Positions 52,494 through 64,000 are shown, counted from the stretch's first letter. The stretch: 64,000 nucleotides of DNA from Escherichia coli (GCF_041886205.1 NZ_CP169029.1), one strand, 5' to 3'. Numbers and translations: made by a program. Notes: generated from the letters alone by a model not told the origin.

Positions 52494-52632
52494 AACGCCG
52501 GACCGAATATGCCTCTTAAGTATTTATCTGATTCTGCAACTGATTCCTTCCGCTCAGGCTAACCCCGCCATTATCAACTATGCTTTTCTCTTAATTCGCT
52601 GAAAACAACAGTAAAAGAATGAGGAAAGCATC

Positions 52633-53550
52633 ATGCCACTCTCAAAGGTCTGGGCAGGTTCACTGGTTTTGTTGGCAGCCGTGAGCCTGCCGCTGCACGC
52701 GGCTTCCCCCGTTAAAGTCGGTTCAAAAATCGATACCGAAGGCGCGCTACTCGGCAACATCATCTTGCAGGTGCTGGAAAGCCACGGCGTACCGACGGTC
52801 AATAAAGTCCAGTTGGGAACTACGCCGGTGGTACGCGGGGCAATTACTTCCGGTGAACTGGATATCTATCCGGAATATACCGGCAATGGCGCTTTCTTCT
52901 TTAAAGATGAAAACGATGCAGCGTGGAAAAATGCCGGGCAGGGCTACGAGAAAGTCAAAAAATTCGATGCAGAGCAAAACAAGTTAATCTGGCTGACGCC
53001 CGCGCCTGCAAATAACACCTGGACCATCGCCGTGCGTCAGGATGTGGCAGAGAAAAATAAACTCACTTCGCTTGCCGACCTGAGTCGTTATCTGAAAGAG
53101 GGCGGCACCTTCAAACTGGCAGCCTCGGCTGAGTTTATCGAACGCGCCGATGCCTTACCCGCTTTTGAAAAAGCCTACGACTTTAAACTCGATCAGGATC
53201 AGTTGCTGTCACTGGCGGGCGGTGACACGGCGGTAACGATTAAAGCCGCTGCCCAGCAAACTTCTGGCGTTAATGCCGCAATGGCTTACGGCACTGACGG
53301 TCCGGTCGCAGCGCTGGGGTTGCAAACCTTAAGCGATCCGCAAGGCGTGCAACCTATCTACGCGCCTGCACCAGTGGTGCGTGAGTCGGTGCTGAAAGAG
53401 TATCCGCAAATGGCACAGTGGCTACAGCCAGTCTTCGCCAGCCTCGATGCAAAAACATTGCAGCAACTGAATGCCAGCATTGCCGTTGAAGGACTGGATG
53501 CCAAAAAAGTGGCTGCCGACTACCTGAAACAAAAAGGGTGGACGAAGTAA
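52633..53550 (+). CDS. osmF: Glycine betaine ABC transporter periplasmic binding protein OsmF (YehZ)
   Basis: 305-aa ORF with signal peptide; first gene of a four-gene ABC operon. Confidence 0.9.
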   Translation: MPLSKVWAGSLVLLAAVSLPLHAASPVKVGSKIDTEGALLGNIILQVLESHGVPTVNKVQLGTTPVVRGAITSGELDIYPEYTGNGAFFFKDENDAAWKNAGQGYEKVKKFDAEQNKLIWLTPAPANNTWTIAVRQDVAEKNKLTSLADLSRYLKEGGTFKLAASAEFIERADALPAFEKAYDFKLDQDQLLSLAGGDTAVTIKAAAQQTSGVNAAMAYGTDGPVAALGLQTLSDPQGVQPIYAPAPVVRESVLKEYPQMAQWLQPVFASLDAKTLQQLNASIAVEGLDAKKVAADYLKQKGWTK

Positions 53551-53556
53551 TTTCCC

Positions 53557-54714
53557 GTGACTTATCTACGTATTAATCCTGTTCTGGCGCTGCTGCTGTT
53601 GCTGACGGTAATCGCAGCGGCGCTGCCGTTTATCAGTTACGCGCCTAATCGTTTAGTCTCGGGTGAAGGGCGTCATCTCTGGCAACTGTGGCCGCAAACG
53701 ATCTGGATGCTGGTGGGCGTTGGTTGCGCCTGGCTGACAGCCTGTTTTATCCCCGCTAAAAAAGGCAGCATTTTTGCACTCATTCTGGCGCAATTCGTCT
53801 TCGTGTTACTGATATGGGGCGCAGGAAAGGCAGCGACGCAGCTGGCGCAAAATGGCAGTGCGCTGGCGCGTACCAGCCTCGGCAGTGGTTTCTGGCTGGC
53901 TGCGGCGCTGGCATTGCTGGCCTGTAGTGATGCCATTCGCCGAATCTCCGCGCATCCGCTGTGGCGCTGGTTGTTGCATATGCAGATTGCCATCATTCCG
54001 CTGTGGTTGCTGTACTCCGGCACGCTTAACGATCTCTCGCTAATGAAAGAATACGCCAACCGTCAGGATGTGTTTGACGACGCGCTGGCACAACATCTGA
54101 CGTTGCTGTTTGGTGCGGTGCTGCCTGCGTTAGTGATTGGTGTGCCGTTGGGCATCTGGTGCTACTTTTCCACTGCGCGGCAGGGGGCGATTTTTTCTCT
54201 GCTCAATGTCATTCAGACCGTGCCTTCGGTAGCGCTTTTTGGCCTGTTGATTGCGCCGCTTGCCGCGCTGGTTAAGGCCTTTCCGTGGCTGGGGAAGCTC
54301 GGCATAGCAGGAACAGGAATGACACCCGCACTGATTGCGCTGGTGCTCTATGCATTGCTGCCGCTGGTGCGCGGCGTGGTAGTCGGTTTGAACCAGATCC
54401 CGCGCGATGTGCTGGAGAGCGCCAGAGCGATAGGGATGAGCGGGGCGCAGCGTTTCCTGCATGTTCAGTTACCGCTGGCGTTACCGGTATTTCTGCGCAG
54501 CCTGCGGGTGGTGATGGTGCAAACTGTAGGTATGGCGGTGATTGCGGCGTTAATCGGTGCAGGCGGTTTTGGTGCGCTGGTTTTCCAGGGGCTGCTAAGC
54601 AGTGCCATTGATTTAGTGTTGCTGGGGGTGATCCCGGTAATTGTTCTGGCGGTGCTTACCGACGCGCTGTTCGATTTGCTTATCGCACTGCTGAAGGTGA
54701 AACGTAATGATTGA
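53557..54714 (+). CDS. yehY: ABC transporter permease YehY
   Basis: 385-aa polytopic membrane ORF with a BPD-transporter motif region. Confidence 0.9.
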
Positions 54715-55633
54715 ATTTAGCCATGTCAGCAAACTGTTCGGCGCACAAAAAGCCGTTAACGATCTCAATCTCAATTTTCAGGAAGGGAGTTTTTCGGTGC
54801 TGATTGGCACATCTGGCTCCGGTAAATCCACCACCCTGAAAATGATTAACCGCCTGGTGGAGCATGACAGCGGCGTGATCCGCTTTGCCGGAGAAGAAAT
54901 TCGCTCGCTGCCAGTACTGGAGTTGCGCCGCCGGATGGGCTATGCCATTCAATCTATTGGCCTGTTCCCCCACTGGAGCGTGGCGCAAAACATCGCTACC
55001 GTGCCGCAATTACAAAAATGGTCGCGGGCACGGATTGACGATCGTATCGACGAATTAATGGCGCTACTGGGGCTGGAGTCAAATTTGCGTGAGCGTTATC
55101 CGCATCAGCTTTCCGGTGGTCAGCAGCAACGTGTGGGAGTGGCGCGCGCACTGGCTGCCGATCCGCAAGTCTTACTGATGGATGAACCTTTTGGCGCACT
55201 GGACCCGGTAACGCGCGGCGCGTTGCAACAAGAGATGACGCGCATTCACCGTTTGCTGGGGCGCACTATTGTGCTGGTCACTCATGATATTGATGAGGCG
55301 CTACGGCTGGCAGAACATTTGGTATTGATGGATCACGGTGAAGTGGTGCAGCAGGGCAATCCGCTGACGATGCTGACTCGTCCGGCGAATGATTTTGTCC
55401 GCCAGTTTTTTGGACGTAGTGAACTGGGTGTGCGCCTGCTTTCGTTACGTAGTGTGGCGGATTACGTGCGTCGCGAAGAACGTGCAGAAGGTGAGGCACT
55501 GGCAGAAGAGATGACGCTACGCGATGCGCTCTCCCTGTTTGTCGCGCGGGGATGCGAGGTGCTGCCGGTGGTGAACATGCTGGGCCAGCCTTGCGGCACG
55601 CTGCATTTTCAGGATCTGCTGGTGGAGGCGTAA
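54707..55633 (+). CDS. yehX: ABC transporter ATP-binding protein YehX
   Basis: 308-aa ORF with Walker [18 protein letters not shown] signature and a C-terminal CBS-like region. Confidence 0.9.
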
Positions 55634-55637
55634 ACGT

Positions 55638-56369
55638 ATGAAGATGTTGCGCGATCCGCTGTTCTGGCTCATTGCTCTGTTTGTGGCACTGATTTTCTGG
55701 CTGCCTTACAGCCAGCCGCTGTTTGCTGCCTTGTTCCCACAACTGCCACGACCCGTTTATCAGCAAGAAAGTTTTGCAGCTCTGGCACTGGCTCATTTCT
55801 GGCTGGTGGGAATTTCGAGTTTGTTTGCGGTGATCATTGGTACTGGTGCCGGAATTGCAGTCACTCGCCCGTGGGGCGCGGAATTTCGCCCACTGGTGGA
55901 AACTATTGCCGCCGTTGGGCAGACTTTTCCGCCTGTCGCAGTGCTGGCGATTGCTGTTCCGGTGATCGGCTTTGGTCTGCAACCAGCGATTATCGCCTTG
56001 ATCCTGTACGGCGTGCTGCCCGTCCTGCAGGCGACACTTGCCGGGCTGGGAGCGATTGATGCCAGCGTGACAGAAGTTGCGAAGGGTATGGGAATGAGTC
56101 GTGGTCAGCGACTGCGTAAGGTCGAGCTACCGCTGGCGGCTCCGGTGATTCTGGCGGGCGTGCGAACTTCGGTGATTATCAACATTGGTACGGCGACGAT
56201 CGCCTCAACGGTAGGGGCCAGCACGCTGGGTACGCCCATCATCATCGGGCTTAGCGGATTTAATACCGCGTATGTGATCCAGGGGGCGTTACTGGTGGCA
56301 ATGGCGGCGATCATTGCAGACCGCCTGTTTGAAAGGCTGGTGCAGGCGCTTAGCCAGCACGCAAAATAA
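55638..56369 (+). CDS. yehW: ABC transporter permease YehW
   Basis: 243-aa polytopic membrane ORF; last gene of the osmF-yehYXW operon. Confidence 0.9.
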
Positions 56370-56457
56370 AGGTATAACCTGCGAGCATGACGCCACCAAT
56401 TCCGCCTAACGCCATAAACAGGAACAGGGCGATGACCCCAATTTTAGCTATGCGCAT
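56350..56457 (-). CDS. yohO: Small membrane protein YohO (35 aa)
   Basis: Hand translation gives [35 protein letters not shown] with an AAGGAG Shine-Dalgarno 7 nt upstream; its 3' end overlaps the yehW 3' end by 20 nt on the opposite strand. Not in the ORF track. Confidence 0.6.
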
Positions 56458-59917: not shown

Positions 59918-60388
59918 ATGCTAAGTAACGATATTCTGCGCAGCGTGCGCTACATTTTGAAAGCCAATAATAATGACCTGGTGCGTATTCTGGCGCTGGG
60001 TAATGTCGAAGCCACCGCGGAACAGATCGCCGTCTGGCTACGTAAAGAAGACGAAGAGGGTTTTCAGCGTTGTCCGGACATTGTTTTGTCGTCATTCCTC
60101 AATGGCCTGATTTATGAAAAACGCGGCAAGGATGAGTCTGCTCCGGCACTGGAGCCGGAACGTCGCATTAATAACAACATCGTGCTGAAAAAATTACGCA
60201 TCGCGTTTTCGCTGAAAACCGATGACATTCTGGCGATCCTCACCGAACAGCAGTTCCGCGTTTCGATGCCGGAAATTACAGCGATGATGCGTGCACCGGA
60301 TCATAAAAACTTCCGCGAATGCGGCGATCAATTTTTACGTTATTTTCTGCGTGGACTGGCAGCGCGCCAGCATGTGAAGAAAAGCTAA
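59918..60388 (+). CDS. yehS: DUF1456 protein YehS
   Basis: Start placed at MLSNDILRSVRYILKA (156 aa); tandem internal repeat of the DUF1456 type. Confidence 0.8.
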   Translation: MLSNDILRSVRYILKANNNDLVRILALGNVEATAEQIAVWLRKEDEEGFQRCPDIVLSSFLNGLIYEKRGKDESAPALEPERRINNNIVLKKLRIAFSLKTDDILAILTEQQFRVSMPEITAMMRAPDHKNFRECGDQFLRYFLRGLAARQHVKKS

Positions 60389-60396
60389 GACGGGTA

Positions 60397-60422
60397 TGGC
60401 GGCCATGCGAAACATGGCCGCC
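60397..60422. terminator. Hairpin terminator between the convergent yehS and yehR
   Basis: tggcggccatg-cgaaa-catggccgcc. Confidence 0.6.
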
Positions 60423-60428
60423 GACAGA

Positions 60429-60890
60429 TTATTTCACTTCTTTAAAACCAGCGGCTTTCATCACCAGTTCCATTTGCGCCATAGTGATACCTTTTTTGGC
60501 ATCTTCAGCAGAAACGTTGATTCCTGAAATACCCTGCAGGGCTTTAAAATCCACTTTTTCCATATCGATAGTCACGTTTTCCTGCGCGTAGGTATCGGTA
60601 TAGGTTAATTTTTCTTCAACACCCGCGATGTTTTTGTATTTGGCGCTTAACGGCTCAAGTGTCTTGGCAGCATCTTCTTTGGTGGTTGCACCAATGGAGG
60701 CAAATTGAATTTTGGTTTCAGAAGATTGCTTAAGCACCTTGTCACCTTTGTAGACATAGGTAATGGCAATTTCAGTGCCGTTCAGATTGGCGCTGAATTT
60801 CTTCGATTCTTCTTTGTCACCGCAGCCAGCAAGAGAGAAAACCAGAACAGATGCAACAACGAGGGAAAACAGCTTATTGAAAGCCTTCAT
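60429..60890 (-). CDS. yehR: Lipoprotein YehR (DUF1307)
   Basis: Start placed at MKAFNKLFSLVVASVLVFSLAGC (lipobox; 153 aa). Confidence 0.85.
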   Translation of the reverse strand: MKAFNKLFSLVVASVLVFSLAGCGDKEESKKFSANLNGTEIAITYVYKGDKVLKQSSETKIQFASIGATTKEDAAKTLEPLSAKYKNIAGVEEKLTYTDTYAQENVTIDMEKVDFKALQGISGINVSAEDAKKGITMAQMELVMKAAGFKEVK

Positions 60891-61014
60891 GTAAAACTCC
60901 ATTTTATTTAATCAAGAAACTGGTGACTCTCACCAGGGGCTATATAGGATATGCCTAATACCGTGGCGTGAGCAGTCCGGAACTGGAGTAGAACTCTTAG
61001 TAAAAAGCACTATT

Positions 61015-63015
61015 TCATCCTTGTTGCTGAAGCATGGGGAATAATTGTTCGCAAAGCAAAACACCGTTATTCATTGCTTCTACCCGAGCCTCGCTTTCTG
61101 TATTACGAAATTGTGCCAATACATGTGCCAGCCGATAAAAACCCATCGCGGTGAGGTCATTCGCCAGCAACTCTGCCTGACCAATAGCACTCTGTTCCTG
61201 ATAGCGCCAGCCGTTATGGAGCAGTTGAATAAGTAACGCCTGGCAGCGCATCAGCAACTGAGGAGCGGTAGACGGCACAGGCAGAACGCTGGCAGAAGGT
61301 AGCGGTGCCACAGGCGTAGTTTCTGCGTCCAGCGCCCAGGCGCGGGTTTTTGTCATCATCACCCGTGGTTCCAGTGTCAATTGCCCCTCAACAAAACTGA
61401 CAAAGCCAGAAACCAGACTCACGGGGTCCTCTGTTTGTTGTAACAGAGCTGCCATGCGTTCAACAGCAAAGGGCGAACAGGTAGAGGCTGGTAGGGATAA
61501 TGTCAGCACGTTATCTTCACCTTCGCCGCTGATTACCTGCGCATCCAGCGTTTGGCGGCTGCTATCCCAACCGAGTGAAATACACTCAGCGACCGGCAGA
61601 ATAAATAAGTTATCGACCTGATTAAGAGGCCGTATGCAGGCGGGGGGACGCTGGCGTAAATATTCCCGCAAAGCCACAATGCCCGGCTGGCGTAACGGCG
61701 CGCTCAACATTTGCCAGGCATCAGGCGACAGCGGCACAACGCTGCTTAAGCGGTTGCGGGTAGCTAACAGCAGCTCGCCATCGGCACTGCGTTTTGCTGC
61801 TTGTGAAACAATTTGCCCGCCCGCTAGTGCGCCAGCCTGAAAACTAAACAGCCGACGCGTAGCTGCCGGTGAGTTTTCCTGTTCACTTCGCGGCCAACTG
61901 CGCGAAAGGTGCAAAATACTGCCGGTGTCGGGATCGGTAAACCAGATGCGTAAACCATAATGCTCAATATCCTGCCAGCAACGCATACCTAAAGACACCA
62001 GCCGCAGATGATCAAGCTTTGCTTCTCCGGCAATGCCAGAGCCAACGACCGTGCGCCACGGCACAGGAGGAACTTCACCAATACTGTCGCGCCGGGCCAT
62101 CTCTTGTGCGCAATTTAATCGACTGTTTAATGCCGCAAGCTGACGTAAGCATTCTCCGGCATGATAGTGGCTGGCGCGGGCGTGGAAGGCATCAACGCTT
62201 GCCCGTAGCTGTCGTAGTGATTCACTCACCCATCGCCAGTTGCAGCGTTCCGCCGCCTGCTGCGCGCGACTAAAAGCGGCCTCGTAGTGAATAAGCGGCT
62301 GGCTGATGCCGCCCAGCCATAATGCCTGGCTTAATTGCTGAACATATTGACGACACGCGTTACCCTCGTCGTTGGCAAACGGATCGTTAGATGATGTGAC
62401 GTGTTCGCTGCGCATCTGCCAGATTAAATGAGTCAATTCCGCTTGCTGCGCTTTTGCCTGGACAAAGGCCTGTACTGCCAGTACGACATGTTCGCAAAGT
62501 GTGCCTTCAATACAATCACAACGGGCGAAACGAATGCTGCTACGGGAATAAAAACGCACATCGCTCATCGGTAAGCGGGCAGAGGGAATTTCGCCCGGCG
62601 TACAGAACAACTCAATGGTGATGCCTTTAGCGACCAGCGCCTGTGCGCGTTTGCGGGTAGCATCGGGAAGGGTAGCCAGTTCTTCCAGCCAGATTGCCGG
62701 ATCCCACTCTTCTTCTTTTTCCGTAGACTGAGTGGTGGCACAAAGTCGTTGATAACTTAACACCAGCATCACGCGATGACGGCACATACCGTTGGCCCCG
62801 CAACTGCACTGAGCCTCTTTCAGTGCCTGGCCGTTCGCCAGCTGGGTACGGACACCGTCACTGAAGGTGGCGATTAAAGCGTCGTTCTCATGGCTGATCT
62901 CCGGGACGTTGCCATTTTCCAGTTCCTTAAGACTGCGCTTAACAAAACCGGCATTGCTTAACGCCGTCAGGGCCTGCGGTGTCAGTTCTAATAATTCCGG
63001 ACGTAGTGAATTCAT
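61015..63015 (-). CDS. yehQ: SWIM zinc-finger protein YehQ
   Basis: Two CxCx(n)CxH SWIM motifs (CSCGANGMCRH, CDCIEGTLCEH). Start chosen at ATG 63013-63015, which overlaps the yehP stop in an ATGA arrangement; the ORF track allows 63039, so the exact start is uncertain. Confidence 0.75.
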   Translation of the reverse strand: MNSLRPELLELTPQALTALSNAGFVKRSLKELENGNVPEISHENDALIATFSDGVRTQLANGQALKEAQCSCGANGMCRHRVMLVLSYQRLCATTQSTEKEEEWDPAIWLEELATLPDATRKRAQALVAKGITIELFCTPGEIPSARLPMSDVRFYSRSSIRFARCDCIEGTLCEHVVLAVQAFVQAKAQQAELTHLIWQMRSEHVTSSNDPFANDEGNACRQYVQQLSQALWLGGISQPLIHYEAAFSRAQQAAERCNWRWVSESLRQLRASVDAFHARASHYHAGECLRQLAALNSRLNCAQEMARRDSIGEVPPVPWRTVVGSGIAGEAKLDHLRLVSLGMRCWQDIEHYGLRIWFTDPDTGSILHLSRSWPRSEQENSPAATRRLFSFQAGALAGGQIVSQAAKRSADGELLLATRNRLSSVVPLSPDAWQMLSAPLRQPGIVALREYLRQRPPACIRPLNQVDNLFILPVAECISLGWDSSRQTLDAQVISGEGEDNVLTLSLPASTCSPFAVERMAALLQQTEDPVSLVSGFVSFVEGQLTLEPRVMMTKTRAWALDAETTPVAPLPSASVLPVPSTAPQLLMRCQALLIQLLHNGWRYQEQSAIGQAELLANDLTAMGFYRLAHVLAQFRNTESEARVEAMNNGVLLCEQLFPMLQQQG

Positions 63016-64000
63016 GACTGAAGATTCTCCGCAAGCCATGATGCCAGCTCGCCCGGCGTCATGGCGGCTATTTGTGCGCCGACATTAACCAGCGCCTGGG
63101 CCGTATCGTGGTCATAGCAAGGTGTTGCGTTGCTATCGAGCGCCGCCAGTCCCAGCACTTTGATGCCGCTCTGGACACACTTTTTCACCTGATGCGTGAG
63201 TAATGATGATGAACCCCCTTCGTAAAAATCGCTCACGAGGATAATGACGCTTTTTGCTGGTTGTTCAATAAGTTGCCGACCATATTCCACGGCACTGGCG
63301 ATATTGGTTCCGCCGCCTAATTGCACTTTCATTAATAACTCTACCGGATCGGCAACGTCTGCCGTGAGATCGACGACGCTGGTGTCAAACGCCACCAGAT
63401 GGGTACGAATACCGGGTAACTGCCATAAACAGGCCGCCATCACCGCTGAGTGGATCACCGAGTCCACCATTGATCCGCTTTGATCAACCAGTAAGACCAG
63501 TTGCCATTGTTCACTGTGGCGCTTAATACGGCTGTTAAAGCGGGGGGATTCGATATACAACTTGCCGTGTTGCGGGTGCCAGTGTTGCAGGTTGGCGCGC
63601 AGAGTACTTTTGAAATCAAAGTTTCGCGCCAGTAGAATAAATGAGCGGCGACGGCGATCGCGGACACCAGAAAAAGCCTGACGAACCTCCTTTGCCAGTT
63701 GTGCCATAATTTCTTCCACAACCTGGCGCACTATCCGGCGGGCGGCAGCCAGTACTTCGGGATTCATCAGATGTTTGGTGTGCAAAACGGCGCGTAGCAG
63801 GCTTTCAGAAGGCTGCATACGTTCCAGCACGTCGAGATTCGTCACCACATCTTCAATGCCATAGCGCAGTACGGCATCGCTTTCCAGCCGCTCAATCACC
63901 TGTTGCGGAAACAGCGTGTGAATACTGTTGATCCACTCAGGAGTGGTGAGATTTGAGCCACCTAATCCACCGGAGCGTTCACCACGCTGGAGCCGTTCAG
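63012..64000 (-). CDS. yehP: VWA-domain protein YehP, 3' portion; the gene starts beyond the window end
   Basis: von Willebrand A fold with MIDAS-like DQSGS motif (LLVDQSGSM); the frame stays open upstream of the first Met at 63899. Confidence 0.75.
   Translation of the reverse strand, partial: ERLQRGERSGGLGGSNLTTPEWINSIHTLFPQQVIERLESDAVLRYGIEDVVTNLDVLERMQPSESLLRAVLHTKHLMNPEVLAAARRIVRQVVEEIMAQLAKEVRQAFSGVRDRRRRSFILLARNFDFKSTLRANLQHWHPQHGKLYIESPRFNSRIKRHSEQWQLVLLVDQSGSMVDSVIHSAVMAACLWQLPGIRTHLVAFDTSVVDLTADVADPVELLMKVQLGGGTNIASAVEYGRQLIEQPAKSVIILVSDFYEGGSSSLLTHQVKKCVQSGIKVLGLAALDSNATPCYDHDTAQALVNVGAQIAAMTPGELASWLAENLQS

What the first reader, a model, noticed from the sequence alone, without database searches (positions are those of the whole stretch)
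61015..64000. yehP-yehQ: VWA plus SWIM zinc-finger pair of unknown function
yehP (VWA/MIDAS domain) and yehQ (two SWIM zinc fingers) are translationally coupled by an ATGA overlap. In K-12 I recall them as part of a yehL-M-P-Q operon with a MoxR-type AAA+ ATPase upstream, outside this window. AAA+/VWA pairs of this kind usually act as chaperone or remodelling systems, and this one is, to my knowledge, functionally uncharacterised.
Basis: partly seen in the sequence, partly recalled or inferred. Interest (0 to 1): 0.35.

Follow-up and report, generated by a model that had tools for sequence, protein, structure and literature searches.

The report
Unstudied five-gene DNA-linked ATPase machine
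The two E. coli genes are real and form the tail end of a widely conserved, unstudied five-protein ATP-driven machine whose parts look suited to binding DNA and remodelling or cutting proteins, and whose first gene is a known DNA-damage-induced gene.

Summary
yehQ lies at 61015-63015 on the minus strand (666 aa). yehP lies at 63012 to beyond 64000 on the minus strand, with 328 of its 378 codons in the window. The two genes share a real ATGA stop/start overlap.

YehP is a CoxE-type VWA protein with a fully conserved MIDAS motif. YehQ has two CxCx5CxH SWIM motifs. A confident structure model adds a helical bundle, an RPA/Teb1-like tandem OB-fold region and a C-terminal bundle.

The predicted upstream partners exist just outside the window: yehL, an AAA_5 MoxR-type ATPase, and yehM (DUF5682).

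The pair is part of a larger unit. In about 85 loci from Alpha-, Beta-, Gamma- and "Delta"-proteobacteria and Streptomyces, the cassette WGR-DUF4132 / AAA_5 / DUF5682 / VWA / YehQ-like travels together through unrelated neighbourhoods. YehM's N-domain has the TIKI/TraB/ChaN/EreA hydrolase fold, with invariant His/Glu/Arg residues.

In E. coli the WGR-DUF4132 gene is molR, a published LexA (SOS) regulon member. Its LexA box is present in this strain.

The yehLMPQ genes I tested (yehM only against K-12) are under purifying selection. They match no PADLOC defence model, and their flanks are not defence islands.

K-12 carries damaged alleles: an amber codon in yehQ and a split molR.

Best reading: a MoxR/VWA remodelling machine directed at nucleic-acid-bound targets. 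Its function has not been tested experimentally.

The parts
61015..63015 (-). yehQ coding sequence (666 aa, stop included)
   Evidence: ORF list and translation. RefSeq annotation of the identical record. Family of 870 50%-identity clusters at E<=1e-3.
63012..64000 (-). yehP coding sequence, 3' 87% (residues 51-378 plus stop); the 5' end lies beyond the window
   Evidence: Translation. Full gene of 378 aa in the source record.
63012..63015 (-). ATGA stop/start overlap of yehP and yehQ
   Evidence: Sequence read directly. Overlaps of 1-4 bp or gaps of 1, 2 or 18 nt at the same junction in distant loci.
62752..62850 (-). SWIM zinc finger 1 of YehQ (residues 56-88; ligands C70, C72, C78, H80 at 62776-62808)
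   Evidence: Pfam SWIM E 9e-8, 31.9 bits against a cut-off of 19.6. Ligands invariant in 49 of 49 homologues.
62446..62622 (-). SWIM-like zinc finger 2 of YehQ (residues 132-190; CDCIEGTLCEH at 62488-62520)
   Evidence: Motif read directly. Ligands kept in 44-45 of 49 homologues. Pfam reports a second SWIM stretch only at a relaxed E-value limit of 5, and its position was not printed. Ligands are lost in the Streptomyces homologue.
62083..62370 (-). Central helical bundle of YehQ (residues 216-311)
61333..62025 (-). Beta-rich region of YehQ (residues 331-561) modelled as tandem OB-like folds
61021..61269 (-). C-terminal helical bundle of YehQ (residues 583-665). Codon 615 (61171-61173, GAG) is the position of the K-12 amber mutation.
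   Evidence: AF2 model. G625 nearly invariant. K-12 has TAG at codon 615.
63033..63698 (-). VWA_CoxE domain of YehP (residues 151-372)
   Evidence: Pfam PF05762, E 8e-71, full-length match 1-222 of 222.
63471..63485 (-). MIDAS DxSxS of YehP (D222, S224, S226). The remaining MIDAS residues are T281 (63306-63308) and D307 (63228-63230).
   Evidence: Read from the sequence. All five positions are conserved in at least 98% of 80 homologues.
60920..60936 (-). Terminator-like hairpin between yehQ and yehR, the probable end of the yehLMPQ transcript
   Evidence: Consensus scan: 7-bp stem followed by TTTCTTGATT. This is a pattern match only.

Best explanation
yehP and yehQ are the last two genes of a conserved five-component ATP-driven machine. 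Its components are a WGR-DUF4132 protein (molR and its paralogues in E. coli), YehL, YehM, YehP and YehQ.

YehL is an AAA_5/MoxR-type ATPase. By analogy with other MoxR ATPases it should form a hexameric motor. YehP is its VWA partner, and its intact MIDAS site would hold a partner or substrate through an acidic residue. YehQ is made in step with YehP through the ATGA overlap. It is the targeting subunit: two SWIM zinc fingers plus tandem OB-like folds of the kind that bind single-stranded DNA. YehM carries a TIKI/TraB/EreA-type hydrolase domain with conserved catalytic-type His/Glu/Arg residues on a helical scaffold. It is the likely catalytic output, a peptidase or esterase. The WGR-DUF4132 proteins are fast-evolving and vary in copy number. 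They carry the WGR domain that reads DNA breaks in PARPs, and probably act as sensors or adaptors.

Proposed action: the complex is recruited to a nucleic-acid structure, such as ssDNA or breaks that arise after DNA damage in E. coli. There it uses ATP to remodel, extract or cleave a protein bound at that site.

Shown here: gene anatomy, motif conservation, cassette conservation, predicted folds, purifying selection and the LexA box. Inferred: complex formation, DNA binding, hydrolase activity and the identity of the target.
For: Operon and partners
- yehL, yehM, yehP and yehQ are contiguous, with a 10-nt gap, an 8-bp overlap and a 4-bp overlap.
- YehL matches AAA_5 (E 1e-34). Its nearest solved relatives by sequence are midasin AAA domains.
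- Walker A (GEPGTAKS) and Walker B (RFEE) are conserved in 76 homologues. The YehP MIDAS motif is conserved in 80.

Cassette conservation
- Eighty genome loci plus five contigs were analysed. Essentially every locus with enough flank has WGR-DUF4132 + L + M + P + Q on one strand. The commonest order is W-L-M-P-Q.
- The same order, with 4-bp overlaps, occurs on a Streptomyces plasmid and on an Iodobacter plasmid.
- The neighbourhoods are unrelated (topA-sohB, hrpA-glgB, gal operon), so the cassette moves as a unit.

Folds
- YehQ model: pLDDT 93, pTM 0.90. It gives RPA70/Teb1/POT1/CST/LEF-3 OB-fold matches.
- H11, E35, R175, E176 and H202 are invariant in 34 YehM homologues. Their spacing parallels the RRSP catalytic residues H3902/E3930/R4001/H4030.
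- The WGR domain is confirmed: Pfam E 1e-17 and a profile hit to the PARP3 WGR domain.

DNA-damage link
- A LexA box, CTGGATAAAATTACAG, lies 9 nt upstream of the first WGR-DUF4132 ATG in K-12 and in this strain.
- molR is listed among LexA-regulated genes with a known SOS box (PMC6590174).
- The Deinococcus proteins DRA0166 (DUF4132) and DR2173 (WGR) are induced by mitomycin C through IrrE/DdrO (PMC8533742).

Selection
- dN/dS is 0.03-0.12 for yehL, yehM, yehP and yehQ.
Against: - There are no experimental data on any of the four proteins. No interaction, DNA-binding or activity assay exists in the searchable literature.
- SWIM domains can mediate protein-protein contacts rather than DNA binding.
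- Some TIKI-fold proteins are not enzymes, for example ChaN and PMT.
- The LexA box sits only in front of molR. A hairpin followed by a T-run separates yehK from yehL. No CTG-N10-CAG lies in the yehK-yehL intergenic region. yehL and yehM are reported as H-NS/StpA-repressed (PMC3686432). SOS control of yehLMPQ itself is therefore not shown.
- LexA-like boxes are not enriched upstream of the WGR-DUF4132 gene in 58 other loci: 1 found against 1.0 expected.
Confidence: 0.5

Rival explanations
1. The cassette is an anti-phage or anti-plasmid immune system. The WGR-DUF4132 paralogues and YehQ would sense invading DNA. The MoxR/VWA motor would then activate the YehM hydrolase as an effector.
For: - Phyletic distribution is patchy and the cassette sits in unrelated neighbourhoods, including plasmids.
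- One Iodobacter mobilizable plasmid carries the cassette flanked by IS elements and next to a type I R-M system.
- DUF4132 genes occur as tandem paralogues whose number varies within E. coli: three in this strain, two in K-12.
- YehI evolves fast within E. coli: dN/dS 0.30-0.35 and 15% amino-acid difference.
- yehL and yehM are reported as H-NS/StpA-silenced.
- Inactivation is recurrent: the K-12 amber codon and split molR, IS600/IS1203 insertions, and frameshifts in strain Rb-50.
Against: - None of six proteins matches any of the 5027 PADLOC models. The only hit is a chance-level DpdF match, E 0.007.
- Of 101 ORFs flanking 35 loci, only about three give non-trivial PADLOC hits. The five MzaA hits equal the number of sigma-70 Pfam hits in the same set and are probably the same flanking proteins (not checked per protein).
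- The locus is present at one fixed position in 5361 of 5426 complete E. coli genomes. That is unlike a variable defence gene.
- yehL, yehP and yehQ are under ordinary purifying selection.
- The only two phage records with a match look incidental: a host-flank inclusion and a 237-bp fragment at a record end.
Confidence: 0.2
2. It is a cofactor-insertion or enzyme-maturation chaperone of the CoxD/CoxE, NorQ/NorD or CbbQ/CbbO type, serving a specific metalloenzyme.
For: - YehP is a full-length VWA_CoxE match, E 8e-71.
- YehL belongs to the same AAA_5 class and gives weak GvpN and cobaltochelatase-like NCBIfam similarities.
- From established knowledge of MoxR systems, all characterised AAA_5/VWA pairs of this class mature or activate a partner enzyme.
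Against: - No candidate client enzyme is conserved next to the cassette. The flanks differ between genera.
- The conserved partners are WGR, SWIM/OB and TIKI-fold proteins, none of which is known from maturation systems.
- Control by SOS or the radiation response fits a DNA role better.
Confidence: 0.1
3. It is a decaying, horizontally acquired remnant with no current function in E. coli.
For: - K-12 and several other strains carry disrupted genes.
- yehL and yehM are reported as H-NS-silenced.
- Synonymous divergence is higher than in the flanking btsSR-yehS genes.
Against: - dN/dS is 0.03-0.12 for yehL, yehM, yehP and yehQ, with dS 0.08-0.25.
- The 666/667-aa full-length YehQ form dominates: clusters of 11049 and 4644 members.
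- 5321 of 5426 genomes keep at least 80% of the region.
- Catalytic and ligand motifs are conserved across phyla.
Confidence: 0.03

Closest known systems
AAA_5 MoxR-type ATPase plus VWA pairs (CoxD/CoxE, NorQ/NorD, CbbQ/CbbO)
   Same: An AAA_5 ATPase with a VWA/MIDAS partner in one operon. YehP is a full-length Pfam VWA_CoxE match. ATPase and MIDAS motifs are conserved.
   Different: No client enzyme genes lie nearby. There are three additional obligatory partners (DUF5682 with a TIKI fold, a SWIM/OB protein, and WGR-DUF4132) that these systems lack.
RavA-ViaA, the other MoxR/VWA pair of E. coli
   Same: The same general logic of a MoxR AAA+ ATPase with a VWA partner in the same organism.
   Different: The Pfam families here are AAA_5 and VWA_CoxE. 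The pair is embedded in a five-gene cassette with nucleic-acid-type domains. From my own knowledge, RavA-ViaA is linked to LdcI and respiratory complexes.
Midasin/Rea1 (eukaryotic ribosome-assembly AAA+ with a MIDAS domain)
   Same: YehL's best solved-structure relatives by sequence are midasin AAA domains, E 1e-9 to 1e-8. Both combine an AAA_5 motor with MIDAS-mediated substrate capture.
   Different: Midasin is one giant polypeptide with six AAA modules. Here the parts are separate small proteins, and the context is bacterial and unrelated to ribosomes.
vWA-MoxR ternary conflict systems (Pfam bpMoxR family)
   Same: A MoxR plus vWA core with additional obligate partners, sporadic distribution and mobility.
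   Different: YehL scores 18.7 bits on bpMoxR against a cut-off of 27. The partners are not beta-propeller or VMAP proteins. No recognised effector domain of those systems is present.
TIKI superfamily hydrolases (Tiki, RRSP, EreB/Bcr135, TraB/PrgY, ChaN)
   Different: Sequence similarity is below Pfam thresholds, best E 0.1 to ChaN. It is fused to a roughly 400-residue helical scaffold and coupled to an AAA+/VWA motor. Activity is untested.
Cdc48/p97 with the SPRTN/Wss1 DNA-protein crosslink proteases (functional analogy only)
   Same: The combination of an AAA+ motor, a DNA-sensing module and a putative protease, linked to damage induction.
   Different: There is no homology between the components. 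The analogy is an inference, not a finding.

Membership tests
MoxR-type AAA+ / VWA two-component systems | A MoxR-class AAA+ ATPase encoded next to the VWA gene | tested here: met
   yehL lies two genes upstream and matches AAA_5 (E 1e-34). It co-occurs with yehP in 76 of the loci analysed.
MoxR-type AAA+ / VWA two-component systems | Intact Walker A and B motifs in the ATPase and a complete MIDAS (DxSxS...T...D) in the VWA protein | tested here: met
   GEPGTAKS and RFEE are conserved in 76 homologues. D222, S224, S226, T281 and D307 are conserved in at least 98% of 80 homologues.
MoxR-type AAA+ / VWA two-component systems | Physical complex of a hexameric ATPase with the VWA protein | not testable with these tools
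   No multimer prediction or experiment was available.
CoxD/CoxE CO-dehydrogenase maturation system | VWA protein of the CoxE family | tested here: met
   PF05762 match, E 8e-71, covering 1-222 of 222.
CoxD/CoxE CO-dehydrogenase maturation system | Linkage to CO-dehydrogenase (coxMSL) or another client enzyme operon | tested here: not met
   No such genes appear in E. coli, in five distant contexts, or among the most frequent Pfam families (top 25 of 101 shown) matched by 101 flanking ORFs.
vWA-MoxR ternary conflict systems (bpMoxR) | MoxR of the bpMoxR family at Pfam's gathering score | tested here: not met
   18.7 bits against a cut-off of 27.
vWA-MoxR ternary conflict systems (bpMoxR) | Third component is a beta-propeller or VMAP protein | tested here: not met
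   The partners are DUF5682, a SWIM/OB protein and WGR-DUF4132.
SWIM zinc finger (PF04434) | CxCxnCxH zinc-ligand signature with a Pfam match above the cut-off | tested here: met
   Finger 1 scores 31.9 bits against 19.6 and its ligands are kept in 49 of 49 homologues.
SWIM zinc finger (PF04434) | A second independent SWIM finger | tested here: inconclusive
   The CDCIEGTLCEH motif is kept in 44-45 of 49 homologues. Pfam reports a second stretch only at a relaxed E-value limit of 5. The ligands are lost in the Streptomyces member.
RPA-like OB-fold ssDNA-binding proteins | Tandem OB folds | tested here: inconclusive
RPA-like OB-fold ssDNA-binding proteins | Binding of single-stranded nucleic acid | not testable with these tools
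   Needs an EMSA or similar assay.
TIKI/TraB/ChaN/EreA superfamily (for the partner YehM) | The TIKI alpha/beta fold | tested here: met
TIKI/TraB/ChaN/EreA superfamily (for the partner YehM) | Catalytic 2His/2Glu set plus a basic residue | tested here: inconclusive
   H11, E35, R175, E176 and H202 are invariant in 34 sequences. Equivalence to the catalytic residues rests on spacing only, not on a residue-level superposition.
Known anti-phage defence systems (PADLOC-DB v2) | An HMM match of any component | tested here: not met
   No significant hit for YehQ, YehP, YehM, YehL, YehK or YehI.
Known anti-phage defence systems (PADLOC-DB v2) | Location in defence islands | tested here: not met
   The 101 flanking ORFs from 35 loci are mostly housekeeping. 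The one exception is the Iodobacter plasmid.
E. coli LexA (SOS) regulon | A LexA box at the promoter of the transcription unit | tested here: inconclusive
   The feature is met for molR, the first gene of the extended locus: CTGGATAAAATTACAG, and molR is listed with a known SOS box (PMC6590174). It is not met for yehLMPQ: there is no CTG-N10-CAG in the yehK-yehL intergenic region, and a hairpin with a T-run lies between them.

The most novel reading that the evidence does not exclude
The cassette is a bacterial, DNA-damage-linked machine that removes or cleaves proteins stuck on DNA. WGR-DUF4132 and the SWIM/OB subunit YehQ would locate breaks or ssDNA. The YehL/YehP motor would pull on the trapped protein and the TIKI-type hydrolase YehM would cut it. 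This would be a non-homologous functional counterpart of eukaryotic p97 with SPRTN/Wss1. It would also give the orphan SOS gene molR a function.
Probability: 0.15. Interest if true: 0.85.

Novelty: new variant of a known kind. Interest (0 to 1): 0.45.

Why it matters
yehLMPQ and molR are long-standing orphans of the best-studied bacterium. molR has been on SOS-regulon lists since 2000 without a credible function.

Three results turn a vague "AAA+/VWA pair of unknown function" into specific, cheap experiments:
- molR and yehLMPQ are parts of one cassette conserved across phyla.
- The predicted folds (SWIM plus OB, WGR, TIKI hydrolase) suggest a nucleic-acid-directed protein-remodelling or cleaving activity.
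- K-12 carries an amber-truncated yehQ and a broken molR.

The third point also suggests why K-12-based screens may have been uninformative.

If the DNA-repair reading is right, it adds a new class of repair or surveillance machine. If the immunity reading is right, it adds a new, nearly core-genome defence system.

Tried and rejected
- Literature searches for the yeh gene names returned mostly noise from author initials. A YehQ mention in a crosslinking-MS preprint is only an entrapment-database false match.
- No paper combines at least three of MoxR, vWA, SWIM domain, WGR domain and SWIM zinc. A looser search was swamped by swimming and weight-gain-rate papers.
- Sequence searches of the PDB with YehQ, YehP and YehM found nothing. 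The YehM profile gave only chance-level helical hits.
- PADLOC found no match for any component.
- The genome scan with the 49-sequence alignment failed because no stretch was conserved enough. It worked with 10 sequences. That scan uses two peptide patterns, so it is not a census of the family.
- I tested whether the high nucleotide divergence of yehPQ among E. coli reflects positive selection. Only 5 records are at least 99% identical, against 1917 for the adjacent btsSR-yehS region. It does not: dN/dS is 0.06-0.12 with high dS. The neighbouring osmF-yehW genes are similarly divergent between the two strains compared. Only yehI stands out.
- I tested whether SOS boxes are a general feature of the cassette. 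They are not: 1 of 58 loci, with 1.0 expected.
- Phage-collection hits are a host flank of the VT1-Sakai prophage record and a 237-bp end fragment.
- Most E. coli "plasmid" hits are multi-megabase records or large (0.18-1.4 Mb) records that carry this chromosomal region.
- Rfam found no RNA family in 60000-64000.
Full report
**Observation**

The window is 100% identical to the chromosome of E. coli strain wlxctx60 (NZ_AP045833.1), read in the opposite orientation to the K-12 map. Both genes are on the minus strand.

yehQ occupies 61015-63015 (666 aa), as RefSeq annotates the identical record. A longer ORF from the ATG at 63039 exists, but homologues align from residues 1-5 of the 666-aa form.

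yehP ends with TGA at 63012-63014 and runs off the window. Residues 51-378 of 378 are inside.

The coding strand reads ATGA at 63015-63012, with a GGAG 11 nt upstream, so the stop/start overlap is real. The same junction is overlapping by 1-4 bp, or separated by 1, 2 or 18 nt, in distant homologous loci.

**Domains of the pair**

YehP is a full-length VWA_CoxE match (E 8e-71). Its MIDAS residues D222, S224, S226, T281 and D307 are conserved in at least 98% of 80 homologues.

YehQ has one SWIM match above Pfam's cut-off, at residues 56-88. Pfam reports a second stretch only at a lax threshold.

- The first CxCx5CxH set is invariant in 49 of 49 diverse homologues.
- The second (C166, C168, C174, H176) is kept in 44-45 of 49.
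- The second set is lost in a Streptomyces member.

The second finger is the less constrained of the two.

An AlphaFold2 model built on 49 homologues is confident (pLDDT 93, pTM 0.90). It shows an N-terminal helical segment, the two SWIM units, a helical bundle (216-311), a beta-rich region (about 331-561) and a C-terminal bundle (583-665).

- Foldseek against the PDB puts tandem OB-fold ssDNA binders on top: RPA70 DBD-A/B with ssDNA (E 2e-3, prob 0.99), then Teb1, LEF-3, MNDA HIN, POT1 and CST.

I read the beta region as tandem OB-like folds. Nucleic-acid binding is an inference from that.

**The operon**

In the source record, yehM (DUF5682, 759 aa) and yehL (AAA_5, 362 aa) lie immediately upstream. 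The spacing is a 10-nt gap, an 8-bp overlap and the 4-bp overlap.

YehL's Walker A and B motifs are conserved in 76 homologues. Its closest solved relatives by sequence are midasin AAA domains.

A terminator-like hairpin follows yehQ at 60920-60936.

The ATPase partner exists, and nothing characterised matches.

**The unit is bigger than the pair**

YehQ defines a family of 870 50%-identity clusters.

- Five distant members (27-55% identity) sit in the order [WGR-]DUF4132 / AAA_5 / DUF5682 / VWA_CoxE / YehQ-like. Their neighbourhoods are unrelated to one another.
- A scan of one genome per species returned 80 loci. They come from Gamma-, Beta-, Alpha- and "Delta"-proteobacteria.
- phmmer with the E. 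coli proteins shows that essentially every locus with enough flank has all five components on one strand. The commonest order is W-L-M-P-Q.
- The same five genes, with 4-bp overlaps, occur on a Streptomyces linear plasmid. Its fifth protein matches the YehQ profile at E 3e-168.
- They also occur on a mobilizable Iodobacter plasmid.

In the window strain the extended locus runs from metG to yehR. It holds two WGR-DUF4132 genes, yehI (DUF4132 only), yehK, and then yehLMPQ. K-12 has one WGR-DUF4132 gene (molR), split into yehF plus the yehH pseudogene, and yehI.

**YehM**

Its N-terminus carries invariant G8, R10, H11, E35, H51, E83, R175, E176 and G199-x-x-H202. Sub-threshold Pfam hits among family members point to ChaN, TraB and erythromycin esterase.

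The spacing H11-E35 ... R175-H202 parallels RRSP H3902-E3930 ... R4001-H4030. YehM is thus a plausible hydrolase on a helical scaffold. Activity is untested.

**Link to DNA damage**

A CTG-N10-CAG box (CTGGATAAAATTACAG) lies 9 nt upstream of the first WGR-DUF4132 start codon, in K-12 and in this strain. molR is listed among LexA-regulated genes with a known SOS box (PMC6590174).

In Deinococcus, a DUF4132 protein (DRA0166) and a WGR protein (DR2173) are induced by mitomycin C through IrrE/DdrO (PMC8533742). The WGR assignment is solid.

Limits of this link:

- The box is not general: 1 of 58 other loci, with 1.0 expected.
- In E. coli a hairpin with a T-run separates yehK from yehL.
- No box precedes yehL.
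- yehL and yehM are reported as H-NS/StpA-repressed (PMC3686432).

**Selection and population**

The yehPQ segment is present in 5361 of 5426 complete E. coli genomes. It is more divergent than the adjacent btsSR-yehS segment.

That divergence is synonymous. dN/dS is 0.03-0.12 for yehL, yehM, yehP and yehQ. yehI has dN/dS of 0.30-0.35 and 15% amino-acid divergence within the species.

Disruptions recur:

- K-12 yehQ has GAG to TAG at codon 615, with the last 52 codons still in frame.
- IS600 or IS1203 insertions occur in some STEC strains.
- Strain Rb-50 has frameshifts in yehM and yehK.
- A resistance transposon sits in the DUF4132 region of an ST131 sublineage (PMC9334617).

**Interpretation**

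The best-supported reading is a MoxR/VWA remodelling machine with:

- a nucleic-acid-binding targeting subunit (YehQ);
- a hydrolase subunit (YehM);
- variable WGR-DUF4132 sensors or adaptors.

It probably acts on proteins at DNA structures that appear after damage.

The main rival is an immune system against foreign DNA.

- For it: mobility, paralogue arrays, a fast-evolving DUF4132 protein, H-NS silencing and one plasmid instance next to an R-M system.
- Against it: no PADLOC match, housekeeping flanks in 35 loci, and a fixed, near-universal position in E. coli.

A cofactor-maturation role like CoxDE lacks any conserved client. Decay is contradicted by purifying selection.

**Verdict**

The genes are known and annotated, and their function is not known. 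The system is best described as a new variant of the MoxR/VWA kind. Interest is moderate.

Noticed in passing
window 61171-61173 (-), compared with L007 15101-17225: K-12 MG1655 yehQ is shortened to 614 aa by a single GAG to TAG (amber) change at codon 615. The remaining 52 codons are still in frame to the same TGA. The window strain and most E. coli have the 666/667-aa form. The truncation removes a conserved element that includes the nearly invariant G625.
   Followed up: yes
L090 12303-23471 (outside the window, upstream of yehK): The window strain has three tandem DUF4132 genes: two with WGR domains (1246 and 1252 aa) plus yehI (1215 aa). K-12 has one broken WGR-DUF4132 gene (yehF plus the yehH pseudogene) plus yehI. 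yehI differs by about 15% in amino acids between E. coli strains, with dN/dS of 0.30-0.35.
   Followed up: partly
L090 12278-12293; L007 2450-2465: A LexA-box-like CTGGATAAAATTACAG lies 9 nt upstream of the first WGR-DUF4132 (molR) start codon. It is conserved between K-12 and the window strain. molR is a published SOS-regulon member.
   Followed up: yes
window 63275-63290 (-): [quoted passage not shown] This weakens the internal Shine-Dalgarno-like GGAG that the authors invoked as a stimulator.
   Followed up: partly
window 61431-61446: The only perfect CTGT-N8-ACAG (LexA-core palindrome) in the whole 64-kb window lies inside the yehQ coding sequence. About one is expected by chance in 64 kb, so it is probably fortuitous.
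   Followed up: partly
L091 (Iodobacter fluviatilis plasmid pl1, NZ_CP025783.1): A mobilizable 76.8-kb plasmid carries the whole cassette, with the YehQ homologue split into two ORFs. It is flanked by IS3, IS200/IS605 and IS630 elements and sits directly next to a type I restriction-modification system with a PDDEXK nuclease.
   Followed up: partly
L088 12130-14408 and 16139-16455; rows H5, H6 and H67: The cassette is inactivated repeatedly in natural E. coli: yehM and yehK are frameshifted in strain Rb-50, and IS600 or IS1203 is inserted in yehQ in some STEC strains. PMC9334617 reports a blaCTX-M-15 transposon in the metG/DUF4132/yeh region of an ST131 sublineage.
   Followed up: partly
phage record AP000400.1 (VT1-Sakai), positions 919-2919: The Stx1 prophage record contains yehQ and yehP, apparently as host flank: the record annotates the host gene yehV next to them, and from my own knowledge that prophage integrates at yehV (mlrA), next to this locus. 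They are not phage genes.
   Followed up: partly
L001 1-4400 compared with L088 (osmF-yehY-yehX-yehW; about window 52600-56400): The osmF-yehYXW glycine-betaine transporter operon is 92-96% identical between the window strain and strain Rb-50 (dS 0.13-0.29). The mlrA-btsSR-yehSR block between it and yehQ is 98-99% identical. This looks like a mosaic of recombination segments.
   Followed up: no
L090 1723-2569: rcnA (nickel/cobalt efflux) is annotated as frameshifted in the window strain.
   Followed up: no
flanks of loci L002-L084 (alignment A5): The PADLOC model MzaA hit five flanking proteins (best E 5e-78). Five proteins in the same set match Pfam sigma-70 regions. The model therefore probably picks up ordinary sigma factors, although I did not check that they are the same proteins.
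   Followed up: no
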